Shown here one piece after another: positions 7,606 through 25,248 of a stretch of 64,000 bases of DNA; the first letter of the stretch is position 1, and each line of letters starts with the position of its first letter. Origin of the DNA: a virus; IMG/VR virus record IMGVR_UViG_3300036939_000021, positions 41,885 through 105,884 of that record. One strand, given 5' to 3'. A program made the translations under genes and the position numbers. The notes beneath the pieces are model-generated. The model was given only the letters and a program-made list of their open reading frames with translations, searched no databases and had not been told where the DNA came from.

Positions 7606-9516
7606 ATGGAAGATTTTAAGAATAAAAACATCCCCGGAATAATCGAAGGTGCTGGTATTGGAGGTAAAGGAGGTGGCACTCCTGATCAAGATAGGATTTC
7701 TGGTACTTCTACAGCATATGTATACGCTCTTTTTGGTATAGGTGAAGGCACTATTGAAGGTTTAAAAGCGGGTGCAAAGTCTATTCAACTTGATGGCACA
7801 CCTATAGAGAATGCTGATGGCACTAAAAATTTTAGTGATTTTAAATTTATATTTACTCCAGGTTTGCAAAGTCAAGCTAATATACCATCAGAAGCAAATG
7901 AAGTAAGTTCTGAATCTGCTGTAGGTGTAGAAGTTCTAAAATTATTTCCTGTAACTCGACAAATAACAAATCCAGATATTAATGGTATTCGTATAAGACT
8001 CGGTTTTCAATTACAAGAACAAGAAAAAGAAAGTGGTGATATTAATTCTTTAGCTTGTAATTTTGCAATATATATAAAAGAAGGTAATGGTGCTTTTGTA
8101 GAAAGATTAGCTTATAGAAATAATGAGTTTAAATACCGTTTTACAAGTCTTACAGAATTTACTTATTTTTTTCCTGTTAATTCACAAATAACAGATACCT
8201 TTCAAATAAAAGTTGAAAAAATTTCAGAAGATGCTGTAGATAATGAAGATGTTGTACAGCAACGTACTGTAAGGTGGCAAGCATATGCAGAAGTTATTCA
8301 AGATACATTAGAGTATCCTTGGACTGCATTATGTTATATGCAATTTCCAGGAAATGCCTTTAAAAGTGTCCCAACACGTAAATATTTAGTTGGGGGTATA
8401 AAGTGGCTTATTCCGACGGTATTTACTGTAGGTGCTGATAGAGGATTAGATTATAACGGTCAAGCTTGGGGTGGAGGTTTTTACGAACCTGATAAAGCAC
8501 CAGCTGATGCTGCTTGGGTAGTATGGGGATTGCTTACAAATAATAGATATGGTTTAGGAAGAAAAATAGCAGGTCGTTTAGGATTAGGTAGAGGATTACA
8601 AGAATCTGACATAGATAAATTTGCGCTGTATCAGTGTTCTTTGCATAACAACGGTATTATTCCAGACGGATTTGGAAATACTGAAAGACGTTATAGTGCT
8701 AACGGAATCTTACAAGGCTCTCAAGATGCTTGGGAGATGATACAGAGTGTTTGTAGTAATTTTGCTGCAAAAGCTTATTGGAATGGTTCACAGATAAGTT
8801 TTTGGCAAGATCGCCCTTGGATTGGATTACCAAGAGCTATTTTTACTAATGCAAAAGTTGTAGATGGAAGGTTTATATATACAAGTCAGGAATGGAAGGG
8901 AATTACAACAGTTGCAAAAGTAAGTTGGAATGATCCGGCTCAGGATTATGGCTTAGTCCCCGAACCTATAGAATATCAACAAGGTATTTTAGATTGGGGA
9001 GTACATGAAGATGAGTTTTCTGCTTTTCTCTGTACTTCTCGTGGTCAAGCTTATCGATTAGGTTTAAAAAATATTTTAACTTCTTTACTTGAGACTGAAA
9101 TGGTAAGTTTTCGAGCATTACCAGAATCTTTTTATTGCCGTCCTGGAGATGTAATTCAAGTTCAAGATAATCGTAGAACACAAACTAGAAAGGGTGGATT
9201 AATAACTTCTGCTACCACAACTTCTATTACAGTAGATTTAAAAAATCCAGTAACTCTAGTCGGTACATCTCCATATAAAGTAAGAGTAACTTTACCCAAT
9301 TTACAAGTAGAAGAAAGATTTATAAGTAATGGTGCTGGAACGCATTTAACTTTATTACCAACACAGCCTTTTAGTATGCCACCTCTTTCTCATGCAATTT
9401 GGTTAGTACAAGATGGAGCTGCTCTTGAGATGCTATATCGAATTATTTCTATAACTCCTGGTGAAGCAGAAAATAAAATGATTTATGAAATCAGCGCTAA
9501 AACTTATGCTGGTTAG
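7606..9516 (+). CDS. tail tip/host-specificity protein J, N-terminal part (lambda gpJ-like)
   Basis: GGKGG, GEGTIEGL..I.LDGTPI.N.DG..NF, YP.TA, N.RYGLG, DKFALY, CTSRGQAYR.G, PGDVIQVQD motifs; ends before the FN3 region. Confidence 0.9.
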   Translation: MEDFKNKNIPGIIEGAGIGGKGGGTPDQDRISGTSTAYVYALFGIGEGTIEGLKAGAKSIQLDGTPIENADGTKNFSDFKFIFTPGLQSQANIPSEANEVSSESAVGVEVLKLFPVTRQITNPDINGIRIRLGFQLQEQEKESGDINSLACNFAIYIKEGNGAFVERLAYRNNEFKYRFTSLTEFTYFFPVNSQITDTFQIKVEKISEDAVDNEDVVQQRTVRWQAYAEVIQDTLEYPWTALCYMQFPGNAFKSVPTRKYLVGGIKWLIPTVFTVGADRGLDYNGQAWGGGFYEPDKAPADAAWVVWGLLTNNRYGLGRKIAGRLGLGRGLQESDIDKFALYQCSLHNNGIIPDGFGNTERRYSANGILQGSQDAWEMIQSVCSNFAAKAYWNGSQISFWQDRPWIGLPRAIFTNAKVVDGRFIYTSQEWKGITTVAKVSWNDPAQDYGLVPEPIEYQQGILDWGVHEDEFSAFLCTSRGQAYRLGLKNILTSLLETEMVSFRALPESFYCRPGDVIQVQDNRRTQTRKGGLITSATTTSITVDLKNPVTLVGTSPYKVRVTLPNLQVEERFISNGAGTHLTLLPTQPFSMPPLSHAIWLVQDGAALEMLYRIISITPGEAENKMIYEISAKTYAG

Positions 9517-9815
9517 CTTAAAACATTATCTGGTAAACTTTTAGTTTTTATTTTAGGTATTGAAATTTTTTGATAGTCTTTTAATTGAGATAAAGCAAAA
9601 GATATATCTGAGTTATTTGTAGTTTTAGGATTAATAAGATGTCCATACATATTATAACTTTCGGATAATTTTTCTAATAAATCTTCTTCTATTAAATTAG
9701 CAAGATAGTTATCAGGAGTTTCTACAAATATATCAATAGAAGTTTTTGTATCAGATTTGTCGTTATCTGTTAATAATCTAATTGAGATATTGTCTTGTTT
9801 TATTATGAATTCCAT
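9513..9815 (-). CDS. hypothetical protein, possible inhibitor/partner of the upstream peptidase
   Basis: Starts 4 nt after the stop of the HExxH protein on the same strand. Confidence 0.6.
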   Translation of the reverse strand: MEFIIKQDNISIRLLTDNDKSDTKTSIDIFVETPDNYLANLIEEDLLEKLSESYNMYGHLINPKTTNNSDISFALSQLKDYQKISIPKIKTKSLPDNVLS

Positions 9816-9819
9816 AAAA

Positions 9820-11301
9820 TTAGTTATTTAAGAGATGTCCTAAAACTAAATTAAAATGTTCAGGATCTTTATTATATAAAGATCTCATAGTTTGTGGTGA
9901 ATGGAAATGTTCCATACCAACTGCGTGTACTTCGGTAGCTTCAACGTCTGAAGTATAAACTCTTCCTACATAAGGAGTTATATAATTACCTCTATAAGCT
10001 ATTTCATCATTTCTATATTTGCTACTATTAGTTATATCATTAAGTTTTTCTGCATTTTGAGTTAGACTTCTCTCTTCTCGCCATTTTTCATTTGCTCTTA
10101 ATATATTTTTATTTTCAGTTTCAGCATGATGGGATACTTCATGCCATAAAGCATAAGATGGGGCATTTTTACCAACTTCAATTAATTTTTTATTTTTATC
10201 GGCATAGGCTCTGTCGCCCTCTGCTTTAATTGATTGAAGTAGAGATTGACCTTTACCGCCTGTGTGATAATAATAGTCAGTTAGATCATCTAAAACTCTT
10301 TGTTTAATTTGAGGATCTTTAATATCTATATCTACTTTTTCTGCTAAAGCTCTGGCTTCTTGTTTTGATAAAGGAGTAGATTTGCCTAAATCTTCTCTTA
10401 AATTTATAAAAGCTTGCTCTTGTTCTTTTTTTAATTTTTCTTGTTCTTGCTGTAAATTTTCTATATTTTTTTGTATATTTTTACGATCTTTAACAGATGC
10501 TTTAGGTAGACGCTTTTTTTCGTTTCTTAATTTAATACTAATATCTACTAATTTTTTTCCATGATCTTTAATACTATCTAAATGTTTATTAGATAAAGTA
10601 GCACCAATACTAATAATTTCTTTTGGTGATGATTTTATCGATTTAGAAGAAGACTCTAGAGAAACTTCAACAGCTTTTTTAATTTCTGTTTTTTGTCTTT
10701 TGGGTATTTCATCGTTATTTAGTAATTTACTGACTTTTTCTTTTAATACTGTTTTTTTCGTTTTACTAGGAAGTTCATCAGCAAATAAGGTTTTTTTAAC
10801 ATCTTTAACGTCTTGAGCTATAGGTTTACCTATTTTAGATATTTCATCTAATTTACTTTTTAAAGTATCTAATTTTGTTTTTTGTTTTAATATAGACGAC
10901 GTTTCAGGCTTAGGATGTGTTTTAGTAGAAGTTGTAGGAAGTATAGATTTTTTGGATCTAGCTTCTTCTATAGCTTCACGCCAACTATCAGTTTTTCTAC
11001 CATCTTTAGCTTTAACACCATATTCAGCAGCAACTTTTTTAAGAGTTGCTAATTTCATTCCTTTTAAATCATTATCAGCATTATTAGAAGAAACTGTAGA
11101 AGTTTTAGAAGTAGTATTTTTTGTAGTAGATGCTTTAGTTTCAGTTTTTTTAGTAGATTTAGTTGTACTTTTTTTTGTTTTATCTCCTCCTTTAGGCATA
11201 AACTGACCACCTAAAGGATGTCCTGGAGGATAACGAGGATGCTCACTCTCTTTAAAAGAACTTGCTATTTTCTTTCTTGTTGATCCTAATTTTGTAGGCA
11301 T
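9820..11301 (-). CDS. putative virion-packaged protein with HPR..GQF leader, HeH domain and C-terminal zincin metallopeptidase
   Basis: FKESEHPR...GGQF; LKGMKLATLKKVAAEYGV; LWHEVSHHAE...YVGRVY...TEVHAVGME. Confidence 0.7.
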   Translation of the reverse strand: MPTKLGSTRKKIASSFKESEHPRYPPGHPLGGQFMPKGGDKTKKSTTKSTKKTETKASTTKNTTSKTSTVSSNNADNDLKGMKLATLKKVAAEYGVKAKDGRKTDSWREAIEEARSKKSILPTTSTKTHPKPETSSILKQKTKLDTLKSKLDEISKIGKPIAQDVKDVKKTLFADELPSKTKKTVLKEKVSKLLNNDEIPKRQKTEIKKAVEVSLESSSKSIKSSPKEIISIGATLSNKHLDSIKDHGKKLVDISIKLRNEKKRLPKASVKDRKNIQKNIENLQQEQEKLKKEQEQAFINLREDLGKSTPLSKQEARALAEKVDIDIKDPQIKQRVLDDLTDYYYHTGGKGQSLLQSIKAEGDRAYADKNKKLIEVGKNAPSYALWHEVSHHAETENKNILRANEKWREERSLTQNAEKLNDITNSSKYRNDEIAYRGNYITPYVGRVYTSDVEATEVHAVGMEHFHSPQTMRSLYNKDPEHFNLVLGHLLNN

Positions 11302-11324
11302 GGTTGATAAAAAATAGATTTAAA

Positions 11325-11337
11325 GTGGAATATTGTA
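11325..11337 (+). promoter_or_regulatory. candidate late promoter GTGGAATATTGTA
   Basis: About 30 nt upstream of the scaffold ATG. Confidence 0.65.
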
Positions 11338-11366
11338 AATACGGCTTTTATTAGAAAATATCTATT

Positions 11367-12215
11367 ATGGCACTTGATCCAGAAGTATTAGCAGCTATTC
11401 AAGAAACTGTCAAGGAATCTTTTACTGAGTTTAATTCTACTATAGAATCTAAATTTCGTGAATTAACAAGAAAACAAGACTCAATAAAAAAAGATTTTAC
11501 AAATATTATTGATACACAACTTAATGAACGCTTTGACAGTATTACTCCGAATCTAGCATTTATTGAAGATGTAAGAAAAGAGTATGAAGAGGAAATTAGA
11601 CAAAATCAGTATAATCCTGAACCTGAAGTAGAAATTGAAGAAGGTAATAAAAATAACAAACGTTCTAAAGGTAAGCGAGATGTTGTGGAAGAAACCACAC
11701 TTTTAGAACAAAAATTAAGAGCAGAGTTCGAGGCTAAATTGATCGAAGATCGTAAACGTGTTACAGAACTTGAAACACAACTTAAAGCCGATCAAGAAAA
11801 AACTAGAGAAGAACAAGAAAAAGCACGTCTTACCAGTTTACGTAATGATGCTCTAAACACTATTCGAGAAATGGGTTTAGTTTCTCCAGGTAAAGAGAAT
11901 CGTTTGTTTACTCTTTTAGAGCAAGACGGCAGACTTGTAAAAACAGAAGAAGGTTTTAAGATTGCGGCTAAAGATAAATTTGGTGATGATGTTCAATTAG
12001 CTATTTCAGAGCAATTACCTGAATTAATTAAAACATCATATGATGAATATTCAATACCTAGAGGTGGAACAGGTACGGGAGGAGTAAACACACCACGGAA
12101 TAATAATGTACCCACTCAGGATTTCTCAGGATTGACCGCACAACAAATTTACGAACAAAAAAATTTGCTTGGTGCTGATTTGATTAAAACTCTTGAACAA
12201 AATTACTCTGTGTAA
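11367..12215 (+). CDS. capsid scaffolding protein
   Basis: Acidic coiled coil with GGTGTGG near the C-terminus, immediately upstream of the capsid gene. Confidence 0.75.
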   Translation: MALDPEVLAAIQETVKESFTEFNSTIESKFRELTRKQDSIKKDFTNIIDTQLNERFDSITPNLAFIEDVRKEYEEEIRQNQYNPEPEVEIEEGNKNNKRSKGKRDVVEETTLLEQKLRAEFEAKLIEDRKRVTELETQLKADQEKTREEQEKARLTSLRNDALNTIREMGLVSPGKENRLFTLLEQDGRLVKTEEGFKIAAKDKFGDDVQLAISEQLPELIKTSYDEYSIPRGGTGTGGVNTPRNNNVPTQDFSGLTAQQIYEQKNLLGADLIKTLEQNYSV

Positions 12216-12220
12216 TTTTT

Positions 12221-12233
12221 GTGGAACATTGTA
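12221..12233 (+). promoter_or_regulatory. candidate late promoter GTGGAACATTGTA
   Basis: One mismatch to the motif; upstream of the capsid gene. Confidence 0.6.
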
Positions 12234-12258
12234 ATTAAAGGAATATTATTAAAAAATA

Positions 12259-13623
12259 ATGCCACCTACACAAACTCCTAATGCTGGTGCATTGCTTGAG
12301 ACGGCTATTGCATCAGCAGCATTAACACAACTTAATCATGTTGCTATATATCCTCGTGTTGCGACTCGTGACTATGAACTGGGAGCATTTGCAAGAGGAA
12401 ATGTAGTTAGGATTAGACGCCCTAAGCGTAGACGTGCTGTAGATTTAGATCCTCGTACTGGTGGATTTAATTTTACAGAAGCAGAATTCTTTTCTGGGGA
12501 AGTAAAGCTAGAGCGTTTGTGGACTGACGGATTTTTGATGTATGGTCATGATTCACAGCAAACAATGGCTTTATATTTGGCTGAAACTGCTAGTCAAATT
12601 TCTGATGCTATCATTACACCGAATGATGAGTATCTTTATACAAAATTTAGAGATTGGAGTCCCTTCGCTAGTGTTTTAAGCACGGGTGCTTATGCGCTTG
12701 GTGATACTCCACCATTTAATATTTCTTTTTGTATAAAAGATGATGGCACTCTTACAGAATTTAATAATGAAGGACTAAGAGGTGCTAGTGTTTTCTTAGA
12801 TAAAGAAAATGCAGGTAATGATCGTTATGCTGTGATCTCTAGTTCTGCTAAAGGTGCTTTTCTTGGAGATAGTATAGCAATCGAAGGATCTAAAGTTGAA
12901 GCGGAAAAAGATCCACTCTCTCAATTAATTATTGCTGGTATCAGACAAGGGCAATTTGTTGAGAGATATGGATTTAGACTTGCAGGATCTAATACCGTAG
13001 GTGGTCAAACAGGTACACCTGATTTAGATACAGTCGCAGGAATTCAGGGGACTTTACCTATTAGTGCTAGTGCTGCGAATACTCAGTTATCGTATGCTGA
13101 TTTTAGTTCTACCTATGGTGTAGGTTCTTTGATTGGTGCCGTAGATATTACTCTGACAGCCGGAACGGCTTTACCTCCAAGTATTGCAGTAGGTAAAATT
13201 GCTAGACTTGCACCAGGAACACCCAATAAGAGTAACGTATTTTATGGTGTTATTCTACGAGTAAATCTTACAACACCAACAGCACCTATTGTAACGATGG
13301 TTCCATATAAATGGAATGGTCAAAAAATTCCTGCAACGGGAATTATTCCAGGTACTTACGTATTTAGCGTTCCTGACATTCCTAGCGTAAATACTGTAAA
13401 CACTACTGAAGGTTTGTTGATGGCAAATCGTTTCTTACGTGAGCCACGTTTAGGAAGTGGAGCGGTTGCAGCAAGTATCCGTGACCCTCAGACTAATAAT
13501 GTAATTCAAGTCTTTACAGGGAATTATGACTTGGGTACTGTGAGCGAAAAGAATGCAGCTTATATGCTAACAGGTGCTAAAATTTCTGATTGTCGTAAGA
13601 CTGGTTTGATTCTTTCACTATAG
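12259..13623 (+). CDS. major capsid protein (P22-coat-like, with insertion domain)
   Basis: RDYE...RGNVVRIRRP N-terminal motif; size and position after the scaffold. Confidence 0.8.
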   Translation: MPPTQTPNAGALLETAIASAALTQLNHVAIYPRVATRDYELGAFARGNVVRIRRPKRRRAVDLDPRTGGFNFTEAEFFSGEVKLERLWTDGFLMYGHDSQQTMALYLAETASQISDAIITPNDEYLYTKFRDWSPFASVLSTGAYALGDTPPFNISFCIKDDGTLTEFNNEGLRGASVFLDKENAGNDRYAVISSSAKGAFLGDSIAIEGSKVEAEKDPLSQLIIAGIRQGQFVERYGFRLAGSNTVGGQTGTPDLDTVAGIQGTLPISASAANTQLSYADFSSTYGVGSLIGAVDITLTAGTALPPSIAVGKIARLAPGTPNKSNVFYGVILRVNLTTPTAPIVTMVPYKWNGQKIPATGIIPGTYVFSVPDIPSVNTVNTTEGLLMANRFLREPRLGSGAVAASIRDPQTNNVIQVFTGNYDLGTVSEKNAAYMLTGAKISDCRKTGLILSL

Positions 13624-13639
13624 GATTTTAATAATAAAA

Positions 13640-14215
13640 ATGCCTGAATACGAATATACTTTGATGTATGAACCCCGTAATGGGACACCTGTTTCGGTTC
13701 CATCTGCTGAGGTTCAAGCAAGGCTTAATGAAGGTTTTAGAACAGCTAAACCTGATGAAGATACGGTTTTAAAACCTGGTACAGGAATAGCAAGAGTAGA
13801 TATTTCTCCTAGTGCAACTATTGCAGCTAGAGAAATGGTGCCTATTGAAATTAATGCAGCAACTCTTAAAGATTTACAAGTGCGTTTAGGTCTTTCTACT
13901 GCTTATGCAAAATTAGTAAAAGAAAAAAGACCTTACACCGATTTAGAGGATTTAATTGCAAAAGTCCCAGAGATTAACAACTGGGCTAATCTTGAACATA
14001 TTATTAGCTTTAAGGAACAAGAGCAACCTAAAGAGCTTGAGCAAGAAAAGGCAGTAATCCCACAGATTACTCAAAATCAAGATTTAAGTCCTACAGGTAC
14101 AGATAAAGCAACGCCTGTTGAAGGTGAACTGAAAGTACTTTCAACAAAAGAAAAACTTGAGACAGATACTCAACAAAAGCTAGAAGCTAAACCAGAAGAA
14201 AAATCGAAGAAATAA
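13640..14215 (+). CDS. putative capsid-associated protein with helix-hairpin-helix domain
   Basis: IEINAATLKDLQ..LGLS...AK.V...RPY..LEDL HhH motif; N-terminal motif shared with the 17267 ORF. Confidence 0.65.
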   Translation: MPEYEYTLMYEPRNGTPVSVPSAEVQARLNEGFRTAKPDEDTVLKPGTGIARVDISPSATIAAREMVPIEINAATLKDLQVRLGLSTAYAKLVKEKRPYTDLEDLIAKVPEINNWANLEHIISFKEQEQPKELEQEKAVIPQITQNQDLSPTGTDKATPVEGELKVLSTKEKLETDTQQKLEAKPEEKSKK

Positions 14216-14220
14216 GTATT

Positions 14221-14592
14221 ATGGCATTGTCTGAGCGTTCAGTATCTCTATTACATGAAATATATGAGATTACGACAATGCCTAACACGGTTTTTGCCGG
14301 AGGTGAAGGTACATCTCGTTTAGTACCAGATTTATTTAATGCTGGTTTGAGTGTTAGAGAACAACTTGAAAAAGCAATAGAGCAAATAAATCAGAATCCT
14401 TCTGTTATTACTAGAATTGAAGAAATTCTAGCAGAATGGGAAGAGTTATCTATTGACCCTAGTAAAATAGAACAAGAGGGTTATTTTTTAAAACCCGAAA
14501 AAAATATAAAAGCAATAAGAAAAAGACTCTACACATACACTGGAATAATATTTTCTGGTGATATTTCTTTTAATAGAATACCGTTAGGTTAA
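14221..14592 (+). CDS. putative head-tail connector
   Basis: Size, helical character and position after capsid genes. Confidence 0.45.
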   Translation: MALSERSVSLLHEIYEITTMPNTVFAGGEGTSRLVPDLFNAGLSVREQLEKAIEQINQNPSVITRIEEILAEWEELSIDPSKIEQEGYFLKPEKNIKAIRKRLYTYTGIIFSGDISFNRIPLG

Positions 14593-14604
14593 AGGAAGAT
14601 ATTA

Positions 14605-17262: not shown

Positions 17263-17266
17263 ATTA

Positions 17267-18964
17267 ATGGTTATTCTATACAATAAACAAGGTATTTCGG
17301 TTGATGTTCCTGAAGGAGCGGTTGAACAGGCTTTAAATGAAGGTTTTACTAGAGATTTTCCTACTTTAGCTGTTTTAATAAAAAACTATAATCCTAATGT
17401 TAATCAGGATGAAATACCTGTAGATATACAAGGAACGTTAAAACAAGTAGAATTTATTTTACAAAATCGTTCGGATACTGTTATTAATGTTCGTTATGGC
17501 GATACAGGTAGTGAAACTAATATACCTGGAGGTGTACCTGCTAATGGTAAATTAAGATTTACTGCTTTTTCTGGTACAACACAAGTAAGTAGTTTACCTA
17601 CGGTCTTAGTAACTTCTTCTGATTCTGATAATTTTGTAGAGTTAGAAAAATTTATTATATTTACAGCTACGCAACAAAAAAGTGGAACTATAACAAAAGT
17701 TGAGTTTTATTCTGGTGCAAGATTATTAGGTACTGTAGTATCAGCACCTTATACACTACAGCATACTTTTACAGCTACAGGAAAATATAAAATATACGCA
17801 CGTTGTTATAGTGGTACTGATTATACAACGAGTAATTTTTTAGATGTTTTTGCCATACCTAATAGAAGACAAGATCGAAATTTTACTCCTACCGTAACGC
17901 TAACAGCACCAAACACCGGAATAATAAATCAAGCTGTTTTATTACAAGCGATTGCTACAGATTTAGATGGTACGGTTAATAAAGTTGAATTTTATTCTAA
18001 TGATTTAAAAATAGGCGAAGATATAACAACACCATATTCTTTAAGTTATACTTTTGTTACTGGTGGAACTTATGTAGTAAAAGCAAGAGTTTATGATAAT
18101 TTAGGTGCAACATCAGAATCTAATATTATACAGATTGTTATTTCAGCACCTTCTGTTCCTATTCCTACAATTTCTGTAACAGCACCAAGTACAGCTAATA
18201 CAAATACCGCTCTTACTTTAAATGCTACTGCAAGTATTACAGGAGATACGATAGCAGGTGTTCAATTTTTAGTAAATGGTATTAATCAAGGTAGTGCTGA
18301 TACAACATCACCTTATTCCATAAGTTGGACTCCTACCACACCGGGAAATTATACAATTACTGCTATTGCAACCGGAGTTTTAGGAGGTAGTGCTACAAGT
18401 GCAGGAGTAACGGTAACGGTAACAACCCCAGCTGTACCAACTCCTACAATATCTATTGCTAATACAACACCAAAAGCAGGATTAATAAATGAAGTTTTTA
18501 TAATAACCGCAACAGCAGCTTTAACAGGAGATACATTAACTTCTGTTCAATTTAGAGTTGATGGATCGAATATAGGAAGTCCGGATACAGTAGCACCTTA
18601 TAGTTTAAGTCATACTTTTACAACAAAAGGTATTAAGCAATTATCAGCTATTGCTTTAGGTTCTCAAGGTGGAACAGCAACATCAGCTAACTACTCTATA
18701 CAAATATTTGACTCAAAGGTCGTTGGTGGAGGTGCTGGTGCTGGTGGTGCTTCCTTAGGTGCTGATCCTGCCGATTTTATGTTATTTGACACTAATTTAG
18801 CTGGGGGCAATGCTTCAACTATGGCGATATTCGTAGGAGCAACACAAGTGGGGGCATTTAATTATGATGATACAAGTTATGCAGGTAAACCTTTTGCTTA
18901 TTTTCATAATGCAACTAGCACTATGTACACAGGAACTATTCAACCTACTGTTAACTTTTCCTAA
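17267..18964 (+). CDS. Ig-like repeat virion decoration protein
   Basis: Four V.F......G.D...PY repeats (Big_7-like). Confidence 0.75.
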   Translation: MVILYNKQGISVDVPEGAVEQALNEGFTRDFPTLAVLIKNYNPNVNQDEIPVDIQGTLKQVEFILQNRSDTVINVRYGDTGSETNIPGGVPANGKLRFTAFSGTTQVSSLPTVLVTSSDSDNFVELEKFIIFTATQQKSGTITKVEFYSGARLLGTVVSAPYTLQHTFTATGKYKIYARCYSGTDYTTSNFLDVFAIPNRRQDRNFTPTVTLTAPNTGIINQAVLLQAIATDLDGTVNKVEFYSNDLKIGEDITTPYSLSYTFVTGGTYVVKARVYDNLGATSESNIIQIVISAPSVPIPTISVTAPSTANTNTALTLNATASITGDTIAGVQFLVNGINQGSADTTSPYSISWTPTTPGNYTITAIATGVLGGSATSAGVTVTVTTPAVPTPTISIANTTPKAGLINEVFIITATAALTGDTLTSVQFRVDGSNIGSPDTVAPYSLSHTFTTKGIKQLSAIALGSQGGTATSANYSIQIFDSKVVGGGAGAGGASLGADPADFMLFDTNLAGGNASTMAIFVGATQVGAFNYDDTSYAGKPFAYFHNATSTMYTGTIQPTVNFS

Positions 18965-19287
18965 TGGCAACTCTTACGGCTAACGCTCAAAGACTAGGAA
19001 CTAATTATAAAAACGCTGCTTTTGTTTCTACTGGTAGTGTTTTTGCTGTAGGAACTACTACAGTTTTTATCAGAGAAGCTAACGGTACTTTAAGAAGTTG
19101 GCAAAATGGCAGAGCATCTTTTTTGAATACCTTGCCTGGAACTAATAAAGATGAAATTCCAGCCTACACAGCTTTTCAAGTACTGCCAAGTCAGGAAATA
19201 ATAACAGATGATAGTTTATTATCATTTGGAACCACCATTGCTACGGGTGGCGGCACGACTGTAAATGCTAACGGATTTATTCTCTAA
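18964..19287 (+). CDS. putative structural protein
   Basis: Translationally coupled within the virion operon. Confidence 0.6.
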   Translation: MATLTANAQRLGTNYKNAAFVSTGSVFAVGTTTVFIREANGTLRSWQNGRASFLNTLPGTNKDEIPAYTAFQVLPSQEIITDDSLLSFGTTIATGGGTTVNANGFIL

Positions 19288-19289
19288 TC

Positions 19290-20018
19290 ATGACTCAAAA
19301 TACTAGACCAGTTGACGTTTCAGCAAATGGCAGCACTTCACAGGTTAATCTAATCGTAGATAGAAACGCATCAGGACACGAGGCAATGGGACGAGCGTTA
19401 GTTCACAACGAAAACCTGGTCAGTGCCGCAAATCCTTTGCCTATCACCAATGCAAGCTTGCCTAGTACATTAGGTGCTAAAATAGCTGCTCAAAGTTTTG
19501 CGGTAACTCTTTCTACTGACGGTGCGTTTGCTACTGCTTTCGGTGCTGCGACTGACGCTGCGTCTGCAACAGATACGGGAAACACTGGATTTATATCGCT
19601 TTTTAAACGTTTGTTTTCCAAGCTCCCAGCTGCTTTGGTAAACAATAGATTTGCTGTAGATTCAGTTGTCCGTACTGCTGTAACAAATCCATTGCAATAT
19701 GCCGCCATAGGTACTAGTGCAGGCGCAAATATTAAAAATACAACAGGCTCACTTTATTCGTTGTCTTGTTTGAATTCAAATGCAAGCACTCGCTATGTTC
19801 AGCTTTTTAATAAGAATACTGCTCCAGTGGCTAGTGATATACCGTTAGAAAGTTTTGCTGTCTACGGAAATGATGGTCAATTAGTGCTAGGTCAAGACTA
19901 TTTTACGTTGAATGGTATTGATTTTTCTACTGGTATTAGTTGGGGAATATCAACTACGCGTAACTTATATACAGCAGCTACAGCAGCAGATACTATTTTT
20001 ACAGCGAGGTATTTATGA
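19290..20018 (+). CDS. putative fibre/collar protein
   Basis: A/T-rich; GFISLFKRL trimer motif; C-terminal jelly-roll-like GIDFSTGI motif. Confidence 0.6.
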   Translation: MTQNTRPVDVSANGSTSQVNLIVDRNASGHEAMGRALVHNENLVSAANPLPITNASLPSTLGAKIAAQSFAVTLSTDGAFATAFGAATDAASATDTGNTGFISLFKRLFSKLPAALVNNRFAVDSVVRTAVTNPLQYAAIGTSAGANIKNTTGSLYSLSCLNSNASTRYVQLFNKNTAPVASDIPLESFAVYGNDGQLVLGQDYFTLNGIDFSTGISWGISTTRNLYTAATAADTIFTARYL

Positions 20019-20884
20019 GCGGTTCTTTCCCTCCTCCATCTCTTGATCCTGTTGCTTTAACTTACGCGGCTCCTGGAACTTTTACTCTGACGATTCCTGC
20101 AAATGCAAAGTTGTTGCGCTTGATTGCAATAGCTTCCGGTAGTGGCGGTGCTAGCGGTCGTAGAGGTGCAGCGGGTACAGCCAGATTCGGTGGTGGTTCC
20201 GGTGCTTCTGGAAACACTTCTGACGTAACCTATTCAGTCTCCTCTTTGGAATCCAGGATTCTCACAATTACTGTTCCTGCTGGTGGTGTTGGAGGAGCTG
20301 CTGTAACAACAGATGATACTAATGGTGCTAATAGCGTAGCTGGAAGTTCTGCTTTTGTGACTATACCTGAACGAACTCTAATAGCCGCCAGTGGTAACGG
20401 GTTAGCGTCTGGTGGTACTAACGCCGCTGGTGCGGGTGCGAGTATGTTCGCAGCCACTCAGCCCGGTACATTTTCAGGAGTGGCAGGAGTTTCAGCAATT
20501 GTCAATGGTACATCTACGACAGGGCTATCTAATGCAAACGGCGCTGCTTCTGGTGGTGCCGGGGGGGGGATCGATGCAAGTAATGTCGTCAGAGCTGGAG
20601 GAAACGGAGGACTAGGTGGAAGAACTAATGCTCGGTCGTTAGCCGATGCTGGCAGTGGTGGTGCGATAGATACACCTGGAACTTCAGCAGGTGTACGACA
20701 GCCCGGAAATCTCGGAGGTTCTGGTGGTGGTGGCGGTGGGGCAAGTATCACTGCTGCTGGCGGCAATGGCGGTGACGGAATACTAGGTGGTGGCGGTGGC
20801 GGTGGCGGTGCCTCTGCTAACGGATTCAATTCTGGTGCTGGCGGTAAGGGTGGAGACGGAGCTGTGTATATTTACTACTGGTAA
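20015..20884 (+). CDS. glycine-rich fibre domain protein
   Basis: GGGGGG tracts and GGKGGDGAVYIYYW terminus typical of phage Gly-rich domains. Confidence 0.75.
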   Translation: MSGSFPPPSLDPVALTYAAPGTFTLTIPANAKLLRLIAIASGSGGASGRRGAAGTARFGGGSGASGNTSDVTYSVSSLESRILTITVPAGGVGGAAVTTDDTNGANSVAGSSAFVTIPERTLIAASGNGLASGGTNAAGAGASMFAATQPGTFSGVAGVSAIVNGTSTTGLSNANGAASGGAGGGIDASNVVRAGGNGGLGGRTNARSLADAGSGGAIDTPGTSAGVRQPGNLGGSGGGGGGASITAAGGNGGDGILGGGGGGGGASANGFNSGAGGKGGDGAVYIYYW

Positions 20885-20890
20885 CAAATT

Positions 20891-22813
20891 ATGAGTGGAT
20901 CGTTTAGTTCGCCTTCAACAGCATCAGCAGGGTCTACTAACTTTAAACAACCGCAAACAGGAACTATTACTAGAACCCTGTCTGCGAAATTAGCTGAAAG
21001 CGTAAGTGTTAAAGACTTCGGGGCTGTAGGCAATAATATTGCTGATGATACCGCAGCTATTCAAGCAGCTATTGATGCCGTTAAAAATACGGGAGTAAAA
21101 CTTGTTATTCCCGCTGGAAACTACAAAATTACCGATACCATCAAGATTGGATACGGAAATAGCCAATATGTAGCTATCCATATTGAAGGTGCCGGACGGA
21201 ATCAAGACTTTGGTACGTGTCGATTTATTGCAACCTTCAATGATAGACCCGCAATTAATATCCAGGGAGCTAGAGGGGTAACACTTTCTGGAATATCTGT
21301 AAAAGGTGTAAATGTTGCCCCAGAGTCAAGAAGTGATTTTCTAACTAATCCTGACTATCTCGACTGGATAACGGCAGGTTGCACTTTTGGCACTTACAAC
21401 CCTTATTGTGGGATTGCTATTGACGCTTACTCAGGTGCCGATCCTGGAGCAGGCATTGATTATCCTAACGATCCTTACGGACGTTTTCACACAAGTAGAG
21501 TAACTGTCAAAGAGGTTGAGGTTCGTAACTTTGTTGTAGGATATTGTGTCAAACCAGCGAATGACGACAACAACGCCGAGGATATTGCCTTTAGAGATTG
21601 TGTGGCAAAGGGATGTACATTTGGTTTGACAACAGGAGGAAAACAAAACAAAGGAATTAGCTATACCGATGGAGCGATGATTAATTGCTTCTGTGCTTAT
21701 TCTGGCTTGCGCTATGGCAAACAAAATGGTTCAATCCCCAGATTATTTAATTTAGATATTGTAGTATGCCATCGGATTCTAGAAGTTGCACATACTGTAT
21801 ACTCAGGTTCTATAACAGGACTGTATTGTGAAAATATCTGTGAACTAGGGTATTTTGGAAGTGGTTATGCTAGCGCTAGCAATACTCTGTCTATAACAGG
21901 CTGTACATTCAACAGAACAGAATACAATAGTGGGGTTTTCGCAGCTTTCTACATGAACGTAGCTTTTCATGGCTGTTCATTTCAAGCTGCCGATCCCGAA
22001 GGTGTAATCAACTTTTATCTTGACCCTTTAAACGTATATATCGCTTTTAATAACTGTACTTTTGGTCACACTCAAGGAAACGCAAATACTAAGCGTGTTG
22101 TCTATTCCGGCACCAATCAACTGAGTATGGCTCAAGGGTGCAAGATGATTTATGGCTCACAATTTCTTTGTGACAACACCTTGCGCTTATCAAGTATTCC
22201 GAATAGACAAATTATTTACGAAACTATTTGGGAACTAGTCACAAGGACAACTACAACCACAAATAGATATAAGATTACTCGTGGCTTCACTCCTACGGTA
22301 TTTTTTGGAGATGCACGAAGCATTTCTGCTGACAAAACAACTGTAACTATTACGGCAAGTAGCGGTAGCTTTCCCTCTTACATGATTGGCGATTTTATTC
22401 TTTGGAACATCAAAGTTAAAAGCCCTGTAGGGACTCTTGTTAACTGGTTGGCTCCAGCTTTTAAAGTATCTGCAATAGATACGGGGACACTTACCGTCAC
22501 AGCAACTTGTTTTATTTTGCCTGCAAATATCAGCGACACAGTTCCTAGTAATACCGTGTTATATAGAGAAACGTTTTTTAATGCAACCCTTTCAACTGCG
22601 ACTGTGACAGCTGGCAGCAATGTTCTTACGAGTGTTACTGGTTTAGCCACAAACTTTCAACCAGGAGACTGGATAAGGGGAACGGGTTTACCAGGCTCTA
22701 CAAGAGTAGTCAGTGTTGATTCTTCAGCAGGAACACTGACTATGAATGTTAACGCTACAGCTAGCGGGACTGGAGTCACAATTGACAATTCTACAGTAAC
22801 TTTAACTAATTAA
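20891..22813 (+). CDS. tailspike with pectate-lyase-like beta-helix
   Basis: RTLSAKLAESVSVKDFGAVG...DDTAAIQAAID...IPAGNY motif. Confidence 0.85.
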   Translation: MSGSFSSPSTASAGSTNFKQPQTGTITRTLSAKLAESVSVKDFGAVGNNIADDTAAIQAAIDAVKNTGVKLVIPAGNYKITDTIKIGYGNSQYVAIHIEGAGRNQDFGTCRFIATFNDRPAINIQGARGVTLSGISVKGVNVAPESRSDFLTNPDYLDWITAGCTFGTYNPYCGIAIDAYSGADPGAGIDYPNDPYGRFHTSRVTVKEVEVRNFVVGYCVKPANDDNNAEDIAFRDCVAKGCTFGLTTGGKQNKGISYTDGAMINCFCAYSGLRYGKQNGSIPRLFNLDIVVCHRILEVAHTVYSGSITGLYCENICELGYFGSGYASASNTLSITGCTFNRTEYNSGVFAAFYMNVAFHGCSFQAADPEGVINFYLDPLNVYIAFNNCTFGHTQGNANTKRVVYSGTNQLSMAQGCKMIYGSQFLCDNTLRLSSIPNRQIIYETIWELVTRTTTTTNRYKITRGFTPTVFFGDARSISADKTTVTITASSGSFPSYMIGDFILWNIKVKSPVGTLVNWLAPAFKVSAIDTGTLTVTATCFILPANISDTVPSNTVLYRETFFNATLSTATVTAGSNVLTSVTGLATNFQPGDWIRGTGLPGSTRVVSVDSSAGTLTMNVNATASGTGVTIDNSTVTLTN

Positions 22814-22826
22814 AAATATAGATCAA

Positions 22827-23027
22827 ATGGCATGATTAGCTAAATTTGATAATACCGAAAAAATATTATATTTTCGAGAAAGTTCTAATTTGCCTTGGAG
22901 AGTATATAACACAACACCTTATGCAACTCTTGGTTATAAAATTTCAAAAGGTTCTAAAGGTTGGACAACATACCAAAAGCTAAAAAAACTTAATTGGAAA
23001 TTAATAGCAACCGAAAAAATAGAATAA
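22827..23027 (+). pseudogene. paralogue of 62229..62444 with TGA at codon 3
   Basis: MA*LAKFDNTEKILYFRESSNLPWRVY...GSKGWTTYQKLKKLNWKLI aligns with MCWLS...LYLR...PWKLY...GSHGYATQQVL..GWKLV. Confidence 0.7.
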
Positions 23028-23038
23028 GAAATTAAAAA

Positions 23039-23386
23039 TTATATTCCTGTATAATTCCGATGGGAATGTTCTAGTTTTAACGAAAGTTTCCAAATATCGG
23101 AAGCATCCCAACTCCAAGAACGCTCTATAACTTTATAGAGTCTAGCCTCAAACCAAAACGGTTTTCCGGCACGTTCTTTTAAAAAATTATCTATTGCTGT
23201 CTTGTCAGTAAAAGATTTTATTGTTAGATTTAACGACCAATCATCATCTACTGTATTTATTGCTGTTAAATTTGAGCGTGTCTCAATACCTCCATTACGT
23301 CTAGAAGATTGCACATCCAAGGAATAATTTTGAGAATCACCAAAGCTACGTTTTAGGGCTGTAGGTGCGAAAGGATAAGTAGACAT
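23039..23386 (-). CDS. minor tail protein M-like
   Basis: W.L....AIDNFL.ERAGKPFWF pattern of lambda gpM-type proteins. Confidence 0.7.
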   Translation of the reverse strand: MSTYPFAPTALKRSFGDSQNYSLDVQSSRRNGGIETRSNLTAINTVDDDWSLNLTIKSFTDKTAIDNFLKERAGKPFWFEARLYKVIERSWSWDASDIWKLSLKLEHSHRNYTGI

Positions 23387-23446
23387 ACAAAAAAGAAGCT
23401 AGATTTTTTAAGTCTAGCTTCTTTTTTATTCCGGGGGGATTGAATT

Positions 23447-23683
23447 TTAGCCTTGTTCTATAAGTCTAATCATGTAATTCATTGCTTTCCATGCTTTTTC
23501 GTTACGGGCATCTAGAAAGCAATTTTGAAAAATAATTTTTTGCTCTTGTGTCAGATTGTTTGTATTAATTCTTTGACTAATAAAAATTTGAAGATCTCTA
23601 GCTGTTTTGAGTTTTTTATTAAAATATTTTTCAACTAAAGTTAAAGTCTCTTGTCTAGCTACTCTTAGATTTTTAGAAGTCAT
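23447..23683 (-). CDS. hypothetical early protein (inserted cassette)
   Basis: Own promoter at 23710-23748 and terminator at about 23389-23427. Confidence 0.7.
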   Translation of the reverse strand: MTSKNLRVARQETLTLVEKYFNKKLKTARDLQIFISQRINTNNLTQEQKIIFQNCFLDARNEKAWKAMNYMIRLIEQG

Positions 23684-23709
23684 TTTTCTTAGTCCTTAGC
23701 TTTTTTTTC

Positions 23710-23748
23710 CGACTCCTATATCATAACTAAAATCTAAGATGTTGTCAA
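23710..23748 (-). promoter_or_regulatory. phage early promoter (repeat family)
   Basis: TTGACA-17-TATGAT-ATAGGAGTCG. Confidence 0.8.
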
Positions 23749-23798
23749 GCATATAGTAAAAATAAATTTTAAAGAAAAGCACACACCGGAATAATAAA

Positions 23799-24128
23799 TT
23801 ATCTTGCTTCTTGGATACTCAGTGATATTTTCCATAATCCGGGTGATTCTTCTACAGTATTAAAATTAGAACACCAAAAATTTTTAAGAGGCATAAAATT
23901 ATAGGGACGCCATTGAAAAGGGATTACACCAGCATGATTTTCTATAAATAATATATAAGTTTCAATTTCTAAATCAGATAAACCATTACATGAAAGACTC
24001 CATTCTTCACGTTCACTATCTGTAACAGTAATATCTAAACTATAGCCATCACCTAATTTTATTCGATTACTTACTGGTTTATTAGTTTGAGAAAATCCCC
24101 AATTAGGAGAAAGTACAAGTTCAGTCAT
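23799..24128 (-). CDS. minor tail protein M
   Basis: LGDGY...WSL...F...HAG..PF.W.P motif of lambda gpM. Confidence 0.85.
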   Translation of the reverse strand: MTELVLSPNWGFSQTNKPVSNRIKLGDGYSLDITVTDSEREEWSLSCNGLSDLEIETYILFIENHAGVIPFQWRPYNFMPLKNFWCSNFNTVEESPGLWKISLSIQEAR

Positions 24129-24133
24129 AATTT

Positions 24134-24787
24134 TTAATCATATCGTCTAACTCCAGGGAATCCTCCATAACGTCTAACATGACCATGATAAAGTTTACAC
24201 ATATCTAAATCATGACGACATTCTCTGATTCCATTACTTGTTACTTGTCCAGCAAGATTATAATTAATATCTAATCGTGCTTGACAGTTTCCATCATCAT
24301 ATGTAGAAGTTCTAAGAATCCATTGACAACGTCTAAAGTAGCCTCTAGCTGGTACAGTTAAGCGTTGAAAATCCATTCCACCTATACAGTCAAATTCGAT
24401 TTGTACTTGTGGTTCCCAAGTACGTTGATTTATTATTAGTTTTAAATCTCCTTGAAATTGTGTAGGATCGCTTGTAATTTGATTATCAAGGTAAGCTTTC
24501 CAAGTACGTTTTACACTTAAAATAGTGCCTATAAATCCCCCCATACTTTGAATGAGTCCACCAAGATAACCTGATTCATCGGATACTGTTAATTTAGATC
24601 CAGGTACAGCACCATCAGCCGTTAAACCTGTCCAGTTAAAACTTATAGGTACTGGTTCGTATTCTTGACCATTAAAACTTACTCCGGCAATATTACAGAA
24701 AAAGATAGTTTGATTTCTTCCATTAATTTGAAAAAGATCTATACCATCCTCTAAGTCCAGTCCTTGTACATCTTCAATAATCGGCAT
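24134..24787 (-). CDS. minor tail protein L
   Basis: FNGQEY.P.PI, P..KLTVS, V.RT...YLD, C.W..R...C...C...L..C...YGGFPG. Confidence 0.85.
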   Translation of the reverse strand: MPIIEDVQGLDLEDGIDLFQINGRNQTIFFCNIAGVSFNGQEYEPVPISFNWTGLTADGAVPGSKLTVSDESGYLGGLIQSMGGFIGTILSVKRTWKAYLDNQITSDPTQFQGDLKLIINQRTWEPQVQIEFDCIGGMDFQRLTVPARGYFRRCQWILRTSTYDDGNCQARLDINYNLAGQVTSNGIRECRHDLDMCKLYHGHVRRYGGFPGVRRYD

Positions 24788-24792
24788 AATCT

Positions 24793-25248
24793 ATGAATAA
24801 ATATGAAATGTTAGATAATGTTCAAGATCGAATTACTCATTATAGAGAAATAAGTAAACCTCCTGTAATAGTACCATCACCTAGAAATATAAGACTTAAT
24901 ATTATTTCTATAAAAATAGAAGAAAATTATACCTATACTTTAGAAGTTCTTTGGGGAAAACCTTTAAAACATGATAATACTACAGAAGATTATATTTCTA
25001 GTTATATTGTAGAAATATCAAAAAATGGAAACAATTATAGTAATAGGCAAGAGATTGAGGAAAACTCTCAACGAATAGCACGATTTGAAAATATGATGAT
25101 TGGTGACTATAAAGCTCGTGTAGCTGCTGTTGTAGCGACTTCAGACAAAATGAGTAGTTGGGAATATTCTAAAACACTTTTTAATCACTTTCCTAATAAT
25201 GCCAGATTAAATTATAATAATCCAGATACATATTGGTGGGAATTATAA
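24793..25248 (+). CDS. FN3-domain protein, probable detached C-terminal part of tail tip J
   Basis: NKYEMLDN...PSPRNI...V.W.KP...Y.VE.......G.Y.ARV.AV....SSW FN3 pattern. Confidence 0.65.
   Translation: MNKYEMLDNVQDRITHYREISKPPVIVPSPRNIRLNIISIKIEENYTYTLEVLWGKPLKHDNTTEDYISSYIVEISKNGNNYSNRQEIEENSQRIARFENMMIGDYKARVAAVVATSDKMSSWEYSKTLFNHFPNNARLNYNNPDTYWWEL

What the first reader, a model, noticed from the sequence alone, without database searches (positions are those of the whole stretch)
7606..25248. Tail-tip protein J appears split into two genes 15 kb apart
Seen: the J homologue stops at ...MIYEISAKTYAG* (9516), and a separate ORF at 24793 begins MNKYEMLDN...PPVIVPSPRNI followed by an FN3 domain. 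Known: lambda-type J proteins run Y.I.A..Y...KY..+D directly into FN3 domains. Inference: the break lies at that domain junction and the halves assemble in trans. The C-terminal half starts only 5 nt from the divergent L gene, which suggests a rearrangement breakpoint.
Basis: partly seen in the sequence, partly recalled or inferred. Interest (0 to 1): 0.7.

Follow-up and report, generated by a model that had tools for sequence, protein, structure and literature searches.

The report
Split phage tail-tip hub protein J
In this 106-kb cyanophage-like virus the tail-tip hub protein J has been cut just before the flexible linker that leads to its fibronectin-type domain. The two pieces are separate genes 15 kb apart, the same cut has arisen several times in related phages, and so the hub and its trigger arm can probably work without being one chain.

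Summary
ORF 7606-9516 (+) encodes only the hub part of a lambda-type J protein and ends ...YEISAKTYAG*. ORF 24793-25248 (+), 15.3 kb downstream and 5 nt from the divergent L gene, encodes the next piece of J: a short helix, a Pro-rich linker, one FN3 domain and a C-terminal hairpin.

Fused homologues of about 750-775 aa exist. The two window proteins align to one of them (P0007) at residues 34-616 and 619-740. They align to phage T1 gp33 up to residue 599 and from residue 602.

The split is not an assembly artefact and not unique:
- On a hub-only tree, split forms fall into four clades, and an AU test rejects a single clade.
- Cylindrospermopsis phages are cut about 12 residues further along the linker, so that cut is an independent event.
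- The pieces overlap stop and start in some relatives and lie 1.5 kb apart in another. They are 15 kb apart here, in a phage group whose tail-tip genes are generally shuffled.
- No intein remnant, intron or recoding site could rejoin the pieces.

In-trans assembly through the linker arm is inferred, not shown. This is a new fission point in a protein family already known to be divided differently among phages (T5 pb3/pb4, lambda L/I/J, RcGTA gp13/gp15). The scan has noted splits inside FN3 domains on other genomes, but among the notes returned none describes this hub/linker cut on other DNA.

The parts
7606..9516 (+). J-N: hub part of the lambda-type tip attachment protein J (HDII, HDII-insertion with FNIII-A, HDIII, HDIV). 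636 aa from the ATG, or 642 aa from GTG 7588. Ends two residues after the last hub motif.
   Evidence: Pfam FNIII-A_GpJ 2.5e-19 and Phage-tail_3 2.9e-19; phrog_31 5e-136 at positions 253-841. Aligns to lambda J residues 2-577 and to T1 gp33 residues 27-599. 44% identical to residues 34-616 of the fused homologue P0007.
24793..25248 (+). Jc: 151-aa protein made of the HDIV-FNIII linker (helix at residues 3-8, Pro-rich loop to about 30), a complete FN3 domain (about 31-132) and a C-terminal beta-hairpin (138-150).
   Evidence: phrog_31 positions 855-957. 31% identical to P0007 residues 619-740. A Jc-only profile hits T1 gp33 at 602-719 (6.5e-14) and the F2-pyocin fibre at 597-711 (1.3e-10). AF2 model with pLDDT 83.8. 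Best Foldseek PDB hit is the T1 tail tip chain 9l9p_S, followed by FN3 domains.
9517..24792 (.). 15.3-kb stretch between the two J pieces. It holds a head-morphogenesis-like protein (minus strand), unassigned proteins that may be scaffold and capsid, two Ig-domain proteins, a Gly-rich tail protein, a pectate-lyase-like spike, and the minus-strand M', M and L genes.
   Evidence: ORF list. PHROG and Pfam hits. GC rises to 0.39-0.47 at 18-22 kb.
24134..24787 (-). Minor tail protein L homologue, divergent from Jc with 5 nt between the start codons.
   Evidence: Pfam Phage_tail_L 1.5e-18; phrog_18; sequence.
23799..24128 (-). Minor tail protein M homologue.
   Evidence: Pfam Phage_min_tail 5.5e-9 (36.8 bits, below Pfam's cutoff of 39); phrog_14 7.5e-12.
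23039..23386 (-). Second, weaker M-like paralogue (M').
   Evidence: phrog_14 6.3e-5. It has homologues next to Jc in L005 and in the minus-strand block of L006.
25252..26196 (+). 314-aa protein starting 4 nt after Jc: five 26-aa repeats plus a C-terminal beta domain. Candidate distal fibre or knob that travels with Jc.
   Evidence: Repeats are visible in the translation. Its homologue follows the fused J directly in L006 and lies 0.4 kb from Jc in L005. Atlas structure leads point to small phage knob-like domains and DUF6385 (lead only).
26190..27038 (+). Tail protein K homologue; overlaps the end of the 314-aa gene.
   Evidence: phrog_30 2.8e-26. 39% identical to the K homologue of L005 and 30% to CrV 'phage tail protein K'.
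27196..27765 (+). Tail assembly protein I homologue.
   Evidence: phrog_32 9e-24.

Best explanation
This is a true gene fission of the lambda-type tail-tip hub protein J, at the start of the linker that joins hub domain IV to the first FN3 domain.

J-N (636 aa) builds the trimeric cone together with L, M, I and K. Jc (151 aa) is made separately. It most likely joins the tip through its N-terminal arm, the short helix and Pro-rich loop. In T5 pb3 the corresponding linker is inserted between neighbouring hub subunits, and in both T5 and lambda it runs along the hub. Once docked, Jc places its FN3 domain and C-terminal hairpin at the apex, where the co-transcribed 314-aa repeat/knob protein may attach.

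Shown:
- The two proteins are the collinear halves of fused homologues.
- Jc is a linker plus a complete FN3 domain.
- The fission recurs in relatives, with the genes overlapping, 1.5 kb apart or 15 kb apart.
- Nothing in the sequence can rejoin the pieces.

Inferred:
- Non-covalent assembly through the linker arm.
- The 15-kb separation is a secondary effect of the gene-by-gene shuffling of tail-tip genes in this phage group.
- The cut leaves Jc and the 314-aa gene as a separately encoded distal unit.
For: Collinearity:
- J-N aligns to P0007 residues 34-616 and Jc to 619-740.
- J-N aligns to T1 gp33 up to residue 599 and the Jc profile from residue 602.
- A joint profile runs unbroken through the junction motif Y....KYD.I.NG...PP..P.P.N in three solved J-like proteins.

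Fold:
- The AF2 model has pLDDT 83.8, with a seven-strand sandwich and a low-confidence N-terminal arm.
- The top PDB match is the T1 tail tip chain.

Recurrence:
- 12 J homologues of 611-639 aa and 6 of 607-608 aa end at the same motif; fused forms are 750-775 aa.
- Jc is a separate ORF in 10 group B loci (8 distinct sequences) of 68 IMG/VR loci (overlap ATGGTTGA), in two Cylindrospermopsis phages (overlap TAATG, cut about 12 residues later) and in L005 (1.5 kb away, with a KilA-N gene between).
- The hub tree puts split forms in 4 clades, at least 3 of them forced by well-supported branches. The AU test rejects a single clade, p 4e-39.

Constraint:
- The linker residues E8, P24 and P30 and the FN3 core are conserved across split and fused forms.
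- Independent split homologues at 34-43% identity all start M-x-K-Y/F-D.

Known mechanics: in T5 and lambda the HDIV-FNIII linker runs along the hub, and it repositions or unzips on receptor binding; in T5 it lies between neighbouring subunits.

Same sequence in separate sources: the identical Jc sequence is on record on two contigs (105,884 and 105,898 bp) from NCBI, JGI and Logan.
Against: - There is no direct evidence that Jc is in the virion or binds J-N. No multimer model, proteome or structure was available.
- The window's Jc has diverged somewhat more than the hub. The ratio of Jc identity to hub identity is 0.67-0.81 for the window, against about 0.89 for pairs of fused proteins.
Whether the 15-kb arrangement is conserved in the nearest clade is therefore unknown.
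- The direction of change cannot be rooted with confidence, so some fused forms could be re-fusions.
Confidence: 0.7

Rival explanations
1. The fission is real, but Jc is no longer part of the tail tip. It would be a freed FN3 module that has taken another role, for example a decoration or carbohydrate-binding accessory attached elsewhere, or it would be dispensable.
For: The window's Jc is more diverged relative to its hub than in fused proteins. FN3 and Ig domains on phage particles are often accessory (citing the paper's statement). Jc is not linked to J-N in this genome.
Against: The linker arm has no reason to persist outside the hub context, yet its invariant Pro/Arg/Glu positions are kept in four split lineages and in fused forms. 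Jc stays in a tight operon with tail-tip genes: the 314-aa gene, K and I here, and M' in L005. The ORF is intact at 34-43% identity.
Confidence: 0.17
2. Assembly artefact: a chimeric or mis-joined contig separated a normal J gene into two pieces.
For: The genome comes from a metagenome-derived virus record. The separation of 15 kb is seen only in this genome.
Against: - J-N ends with a clean stop at the same residue as at least 17 other database proteins.
- Jc has its own ATG directly after an in-frame stop, at the same position as independent 150-151-aa homologues.
- A mis-join would not create matching stop and start signals.
- The same Jc sequence occurs on two records.
- Both genes are internal to a DTR-bounded contig.
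- L005 also has the pieces apart.
Confidence: 0.03
3. The two pieces are rejoined after transcription or translation, by a split intein, trans-splicing introns or programmed recoding, so that the virion carries a full-length J.
For: HINT/intein-like domains do occur in J relatives of cyanobacterial phages, but at the N-terminus. In group B relatives the stop/start overlap TAT GGT TGA C would allow a +1 shift that gives a collinear fusion.
Against: In the window only two residues on each side (AG* and MN) lie outside the homology with fused J, so there is no room for intein halves. No Rfam family, and hence no group I or II intron, is found in the 64-kb window. Recoding cannot bridge 15 kb.
Confidence: 0.02

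Closest known systems
Bacteriophage lambda tip attachment protein gpJ (PDB 8IYK, 8XCG; PMC10721106, PMC11101478) and its close structural relatives: T1 gp33 (9L9P), the F2-pyocin fibre (25VF) and gp24 (23GD)
   Same: The hub domains (HDII, HDII-insertion with FNIII-A, HDIII, HDIV) are the same, followed by a linker of a short helix plus a long loop and then FNIII-1. The sequences are collinear across the junction. L, M, K and I partners are present.
   Different: Here the chain is cut before the linker and the pieces are separate genes 15 kb apart. There is no FNIII-2, alpha-helical shaft, central straight fibre or receptor-binding domain. Even the fused relatives end after one FN3 plus about 25 residues.
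Phage T5 tail tip: baseplate hub protein pb3 plus central fibre protein pb4 (bioRxiv 10.1101/2022.09.20.507954, also held as PMC10038345)
   Same: The string of FNIII domains below the hub is divided between two polypeptides that associate non-covalently. The long HDIV-FNIII linker lies between hub subunits and acts as the zip that opens the cone.
   Different: In T5 the division lies after the second FNIII of pb3, so the linker stays covalently attached to the hub. Here the cut is upstream of the linker, so the trigger arm itself is the detachable part. The T5 genes are neighbours.
Distribution of the four hub domains over several proteins: lambda gpL/gpI/gpJ and RcGTA gp13/gp15, compared with the single-chain T5 pb3 (PMC10721106)
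   Same: These are precedents showing that the baseplate hub module has been cut at different points in different lineages.
   Different: Those cuts separate HDI or the plug from HDII-IV. A cut between HDIV and the linker/FNIII was not mentioned in the papers read here.
Cylindrospermopsis phages CrV-01T (MH636380, gp038/gp039) and Cr-LKS4 (OQ625504, g39/g40)
   Same: These are the nearest cultured relatives (J 33-35% identical). J ends in the same linker, and a 147-148-aa linker/FN3 ORF follows (Jc HMM E 1e-9 to 1e-10; phrog_31 positions 898-957).
   Different: The genes are adjacent (TAATG overlap). The cut is about 12 residues further downstream, after the KY.LIDG helix. The small ORF is annotated only as a hypothetical protein.

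Membership tests
Lambda-type tip attachment protein J / baseplate hub (Pfam PF13550 Phage-tail_3 and PF24801 FNIII-A_GpJ; phrog_31) | Phage-tail_3 and FNIII-A_GpJ domains above Pfam's curated cutoffs | tested here: met
   J-N scores 70.0 bits (cutoff 23) and 70.1 bits (cutoff 27); phrog_31 5e-136.
Lambda-type tip attachment protein J / baseplate hub (Pfam PF13550 Phage-tail_3 and PF24801 FNIII-A_GpJ; phrog_31) | Collinear alignment with the hub domains of solved J proteins | tested here: met
   Lambda J residues 2-577, E 9e-63. Also F2 pyocin, gp24 and T1 gp33, up to residues 590-599.
Lambda-type tip attachment protein J / baseplate hub (Pfam PF13550 Phage-tail_3 and PF24801 FNIII-A_GpJ; phrog_31) | Linker plus FNIII-1 following HDIV on the same polypeptide | tested here: not met
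   J-N stops two residues after the last hub motif. The linker and FN3 are encoded at 24793-25248.
Lambda-type tip attachment protein J / baseplate hub (Pfam PF13550 Phage-tail_3 and PF24801 FNIII-A_GpJ; phrog_31) | C-terminal central fibre and receptor-binding domain | tested here: not met
   Neither piece extends beyond one FN3 domain. Fused relatives of this clade also end at about 750-775 aa. The only phrog_31 match in the genome at E <= 0.1 by that search is J-N.
Lambda-type tip attachment protein J / baseplate hub (Pfam PF13550 Phage-tail_3 and PF24801 FNIII-A_GpJ; phrog_31) | Companion tail-tip genes M, L, K and I in the genome | tested here: met
   L, M, M', K and I are identified, but their order and strands are shuffled.
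Lambda-type tip attachment protein J / baseplate hub (Pfam PF13550 Phage-tail_3 and PF24801 FNIII-A_GpJ; phrog_31) | Trimer closing the tail tube in the virion | not testable with these tools
   This needs cryo-EM or biochemistry.
Fibronectin type III fold (the Jc domain) | Seven-strand beta sandwich with the conserved Trp (strand B) and Tyr (strand C) core | tested here: met
   AF2 model with pLDDT 83.8 and strands at 31-42, 45-55, 68-77, 82-89, 95-99, 104-114 and about 120-132. Foldseek hits to many FN3 domains with probability 1.00. The profile hits titin, sorLA and neogenin FN3 domains. W54 and Y71 are invariant. Pfam fn3 itself is not reached by the window protein; the fused relative P0016 gives a weak fn3 hit, 5.5e-4.
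Split intein / protein trans-splicing pair | An N-intein of about 100 aa after the N-extein and a C-intein of about 35 aa before the C-extein | tested here: not met
   Only AG* and MN lie outside the homology with fused J. No HINT domain is found in either protein.
T5-type two-protein central fibre (pb3 + pb4) | The second protein contributes FNIII domains followed by a beta-helix spike, and the division lies between FNIII domains | tested here: not met
   Jc has one FN3 domain and no spike. The division lies upstream of the linker. The resemblance is functional only.

The most novel reading that the evidence does not exclude
The HDIV-FNIII linker is held to be the mechanical zip that carries the receptor signal from the distal fibre to the hub and opens the cone in T5 and lambda. 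In several cyanophage lineages it would be a separate, non-covalently inserted latch. Repeated natural fissions at this one site would show that force need not pass through a continuous chain: pulling the arm out from between hub subunits would be enough. The fission would also leave the distal module (arm, FN3 and the attached 314-aa fibre) encoded apart from the hub gene.
Probability: 0.3. Interest if true: 0.6.

Novelty: new variant of a known kind. Interest (0 to 1): 0.45.

Why it matters
Current models of how siphophage tails open (T5, lambda) give the HDIV-FNIII linker the role of transmitting receptor binding to the hub. A set of natural phages in which this linker is cut from the hub offers a ready-made test of whether covalent continuity is needed. 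The set has at least three independent cuts, fused controls at 50% identity, and cultured members (the Cylindrospermopsis phages). It also shows where a hub protein tolerates being divided.

For annotation, J genes of about 610-640 aa in cyanophages should not be called truncated. The small ORF now labelled hypothetical (for example CrV gp039 and Cr-LKS4 g40) is the missing J piece. The finding also illustrates how far tail-tip gene order can be scrambled in this phage group without loss of the parts.

Tried and rejected
- Word-based homologue search with Jc found only itself. tblastn of Jc against cultured phages found nothing. The exhaustive HMMER search was needed.
- The single-sequence AF2 model of Jc was useless, pLDDT 43. 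It worked with a 22-row alignment.
- The third homologue search, with alignment A1, was dominated by the long fused row and gave no new small Jc proteins.
The contigs of the closest J-N relatives (P0010-P0015) and of the split Jc homologues P0002-P0004 could therefore not be read.
- A single-protein scan of viral contigs with J-N found nothing.
- Promoter and terminator scans around both genes gave counts no higher than shuffled sequence.
- The over-represented GGAATAAT motif is not placed at either end of the intervening block.
- The split-intein, intron and recoding readings were rejected for the window.
- A single origin of all split forms was rejected. Joining the window clade with the L005 clade was only weakly rejected, p 0.017, and that group was chosen after the tree had been seen.
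Full report
WHAT IS THERE

The window is bases 41885-105884 of a 105,884-bp IMG/VR virus record with direct terminal repeats. It is AT-rich, about 32% GC. Its nearest cultured relatives by J are the roughly 100-kb Cylindrospermopsis siphoviruses CrV-01T and Cr-LKS4, at 33-35% identity.

ORF 7588/7606-9516 (+) ends ...YEISAKTYAG*. It carries Pfam FNIII-A_GpJ and Phage-tail_3 and matches phrog_31 ('central tail fiber J') at profile positions 253-841 of 1565. Against solved structures it aligns to lambda gpJ residues 2-577, and to the J-like proteins of F2 pyocin, gp24 and phage T1 up to residues 590-599. It is therefore the hub part of J and nothing more.

ORF 24793-25248 (+, 151 aa) starts one codon after an in-frame TAA and 5 nt from the divergent L start codon. 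It matches phrog_31 at positions 855-957, directly after the stretch matched by J-N.

IS THE SMALL PROTEIN THE MISSING PIECE?

An exhaustive HMMER search with the 151-aa protein found three kinds of relative:
- Three independent proteins of 150-151 aa that start at the same position (M-x-K-Y-D).
- A fragment of a fused protein.
- A complete fused protein, P0007 (765 aa).

J-N is 44% identical to P0007 residues 34-616, and Jc is 31% identical to residues 619-740. In the multiple alignment the split proteins begin exactly where the fused ones read ...Y-x-x-x-K-Y/H....

A profile of Jc alone (22 sequences) hits T1 gp33 at residues 602-719 (E 6.5e-14), the F2-pyocin fibre at 597-711 (1.3e-10) and gp24 at 604-725 (2.3e-5). 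J-N ends at residue 599 of T1 gp33. A joint profile runs without a break through the junction in those three proteins.

With the 22-row alignment AlphaFold2 gives a confident model, mean pLDDT 83.8:
- Residues 1-20 have low confidence and include a short helix at 3-8.
- A Pro-rich loop runs to about residue 30.
- A seven-strand sandwich covers about 31-132.
- A less confident C-terminal hairpin covers 138-150.

The best Foldseek match in the PDB is the T1 tail tip chain 9l9p_S, followed by classical FN3 domains. [quoted passage not shown] Jc is therefore linker plus FNIII-1, and the cut lies just before the linker's helix.

IS IT AN ARTEFACT, OR UNIQUE?

Neither. Among 120 listed J homologues:
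- Twelve proteins of 611-639 aa (the window's own clade at 67-80% identity, and a second clade at 47-49%) end at ...Y-x-G/N/S*.
- Six proteins of 607-608 aa also end at ...Y-x-G/N/S*.
- Fused forms are 750-775 aa.
- Forms of about 890 aa add an N-terminal HINT domain.
- Forms over 1000 aa have longer C-termini.

In 68 IMG/VR loci a Jc HMM finds the domain inside J in most cases. It finds a separate ORF in these cases:
- The group with 608-aa J proteins, where the Jc start overlaps the J-N stop (ATGGTTGA...AKTYG* / MVDFYALVE...).
- L005, a 103-kb relative, where Jc lies 1.5 kb downstream and a minus-strand KilA-N gene sits between.
- CrV and Cr-LKS4, where the annotated 'hypothetical' gp039/g40 is Jc (HMM E 1e-9 to 1e-10; phrog_31 positions 898-957).

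In the Cylindrospermopsis phages the cut lies about 12 residues further along the linker (...KYNLIDGMSLL* / MAWEFDPLP...). That is an independent event.

A maximum-likelihood tree of the hub part alone places split forms in four clades, at least three of which are forced by well-supported branches. An AU test rejects one clade of all split forms, with a log-likelihood difference of 644 and p 4e-39. Uniting the window clade with the L005 clade is only weakly rejected, p 0.017, and that group was chosen post hoc.

The identical Jc sequence is on record on two contigs, from NCBI, JGI and Logan.

WHY 15 KB APART?

Comparison of gene order shows that tail-tip genes in this phage group are shuffled one by one:
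- CrV: M(-) | I J Jc x x K x L.
- L006 (fused J): tube, M, L, M'(-) | I J 314aa-homologue.
- L005: L K x I J-N [KilA-N(-), x(-)] Jc M' 314aa-homologue(-) ...
- Window: tube(-) | J-N ... head and fibre genes ... M' M L(-) | Jc 314aa K I portal.

Tight divergent junctions (2-5 nt) between the minus-strand M/L block and the plus-strand block occur in CrV as well. What differs is which gene comes first. The reading that 'I J-N' was removed from in front of Jc is thus consistent with the data but not proven.

The association of Jc with the 314-aa gene is kept in the window. In L006 the homologue follows the fused J directly, and in L005 it is nearly kept.

The intervening 15.3 kb holds core structural genes, so it is not a simple mobile insertion.

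CAN THE PIECES BE REJOINED?

Only two residues on each side lie outside the homology, so a split intein is excluded. Neither protein has a HINT domain. No Rfam family, and therefore no group I or II intron, is found in the window. Recoding cannot bridge 15 kb.

HOW IT PROBABLY WORKS (INFERENCE)

[quoted passage not shown] On receptor binding it is pulled 'like a zip', which frees the plug. In lambda the corresponding elongated linker disengages and repositions on LamB binding.

The cut here leaves the whole linker on Jc. The linker positions E8, P24 and P30 (with K3, P23, P28 and R31 in the closer set) are conserved in split and fused forms alike. The simplest reading is that the arm still occupies the same groove between J-N subunits and holds Jc on the tip non-covalently.

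The FN3 domain, the C-terminal hairpin and probably the 314-aa protein would then form the apex. The 314-aa protein has five 26-aa repeats and a C-terminal beta domain; the atlas leads are no more than leads.

The window's Jc is somewhat more diverged relative to its hub than in fused proteins: the ratio is 0.67-0.81 against about 0.89. This is compatible with a slightly relaxed or shifted constraint and is the main point in favour of the rival reading that Jc has changed role.

COMPARISON WITH WHAT IS KNOWN

Division of the hub module among proteins is known: lambda gpL/gpI/gpJ, RcGTA gp13/gp15 and the single-chain T5 pb3. So is division of the FNIII string, in T5 pb3/pb4. A cut between HDIV and the linker, its recurrence, and the dispersal of the two genes were not mentioned in the papers read here. 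I therefore class this as a new variant of a known kind, of moderate interest.

The earlier notes of this scan that the look-ups returned describe splits inside FN3 or PKD domains on other genomes. Here the FN3 domain is complete and the cut lies in the linker.

LIMITS

The arrangement in the window's closest relatives is therefore unknown.
- No multimer prediction or virion data were available.

Noticed in passing
P0027, P0048, P0036 (J relatives of about 890 aa; not in the window): A HINT/intein-like domain (PF07591, PF13403, PF01079) sits at residues about 17-151, before the hub, in many cyanobacterial phage and prophage J proteins, including one from a Leptothoe genome.
   Followed up: partly
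L008:11740-11860, L013:8020-8140 (group B relatives): The J-N stop and the Jc start overlap as TAT GGT TGA C / ATGGTTGA. A +1 shift at GGT-TGA-C would give ...AKTYG-DFYALVE..., which is collinear with fused relatives (...AKTYS-ADYYNQIE...). Both reinitiation and programmed +1 frameshifting are therefore conceivable. Their Jc also carries an insert of about 80 aa inside the FN3 domain.
   Followed up: partly
L005:8445-8795 (-): A KilA-N domain gene on the opposite strand, related to window 254-973 and 60894-61679, lies between J-N and Jc in the 103-kb relative. It looks like a moron-type insertion that pushed the two pieces apart.
   Followed up: partly
window 25252-26196 (+): A 314-aa protein with five tandem 26-aa repeats (NKDGDLLGVLRYIxNNL...) and a C-terminal beta domain that resembles small phage knob-like domains and DUF6385 in the ESM Atlas. 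It is syntenic with Jc or with fused J in relatives and is a candidate distal fibre.
   Followed up: partly
window 18000-22000: GC content rises to 0.39-0.47 against about 0.32 elsewhere. The region encodes a glycine-rich tail protein (PF21722) and a pectate-lyase-like spike, so it may be an acquired host-recognition module.
   Followed up: no
window 6077-6772 (-) and 6772-7542 (-): Two adjacent paralogous proteins of 231 and 256 aa share an N-terminus (MAK..-PSTR.TT.G) and have no Pfam hit. L006 has one homologue, which lies in the same minus-strand block as the M and L genes. They may be tail tube or tube-associated proteins.
   Followed up: no
window, whole: The octamer GGAATAAT occurs 47 times against 4.5 expected. 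It is dispersed and not placed at the ends of the block between the J pieces.
   Followed up: partly
window 23039-23386 (-), 23799-24128 (-), 32072-35674 (-): There are two M-like paralogues, plus an M-like stretch (residues 138-241) inside a protein of about 1200 aa that is 40% identical to a 1205-aa protein of L005.
   Followed up: no
window 9820-11301 (-): A 493-aa protein with a Lys/Ser/Thr-rich N-terminal half and a conserved C-terminal domain (phrog_20397) that contains an HEVSHH motif. It may be a head-morphogenesis or metallopeptidase-like protein and sits directly after J-N on the opposite strand.
   Followed up: no
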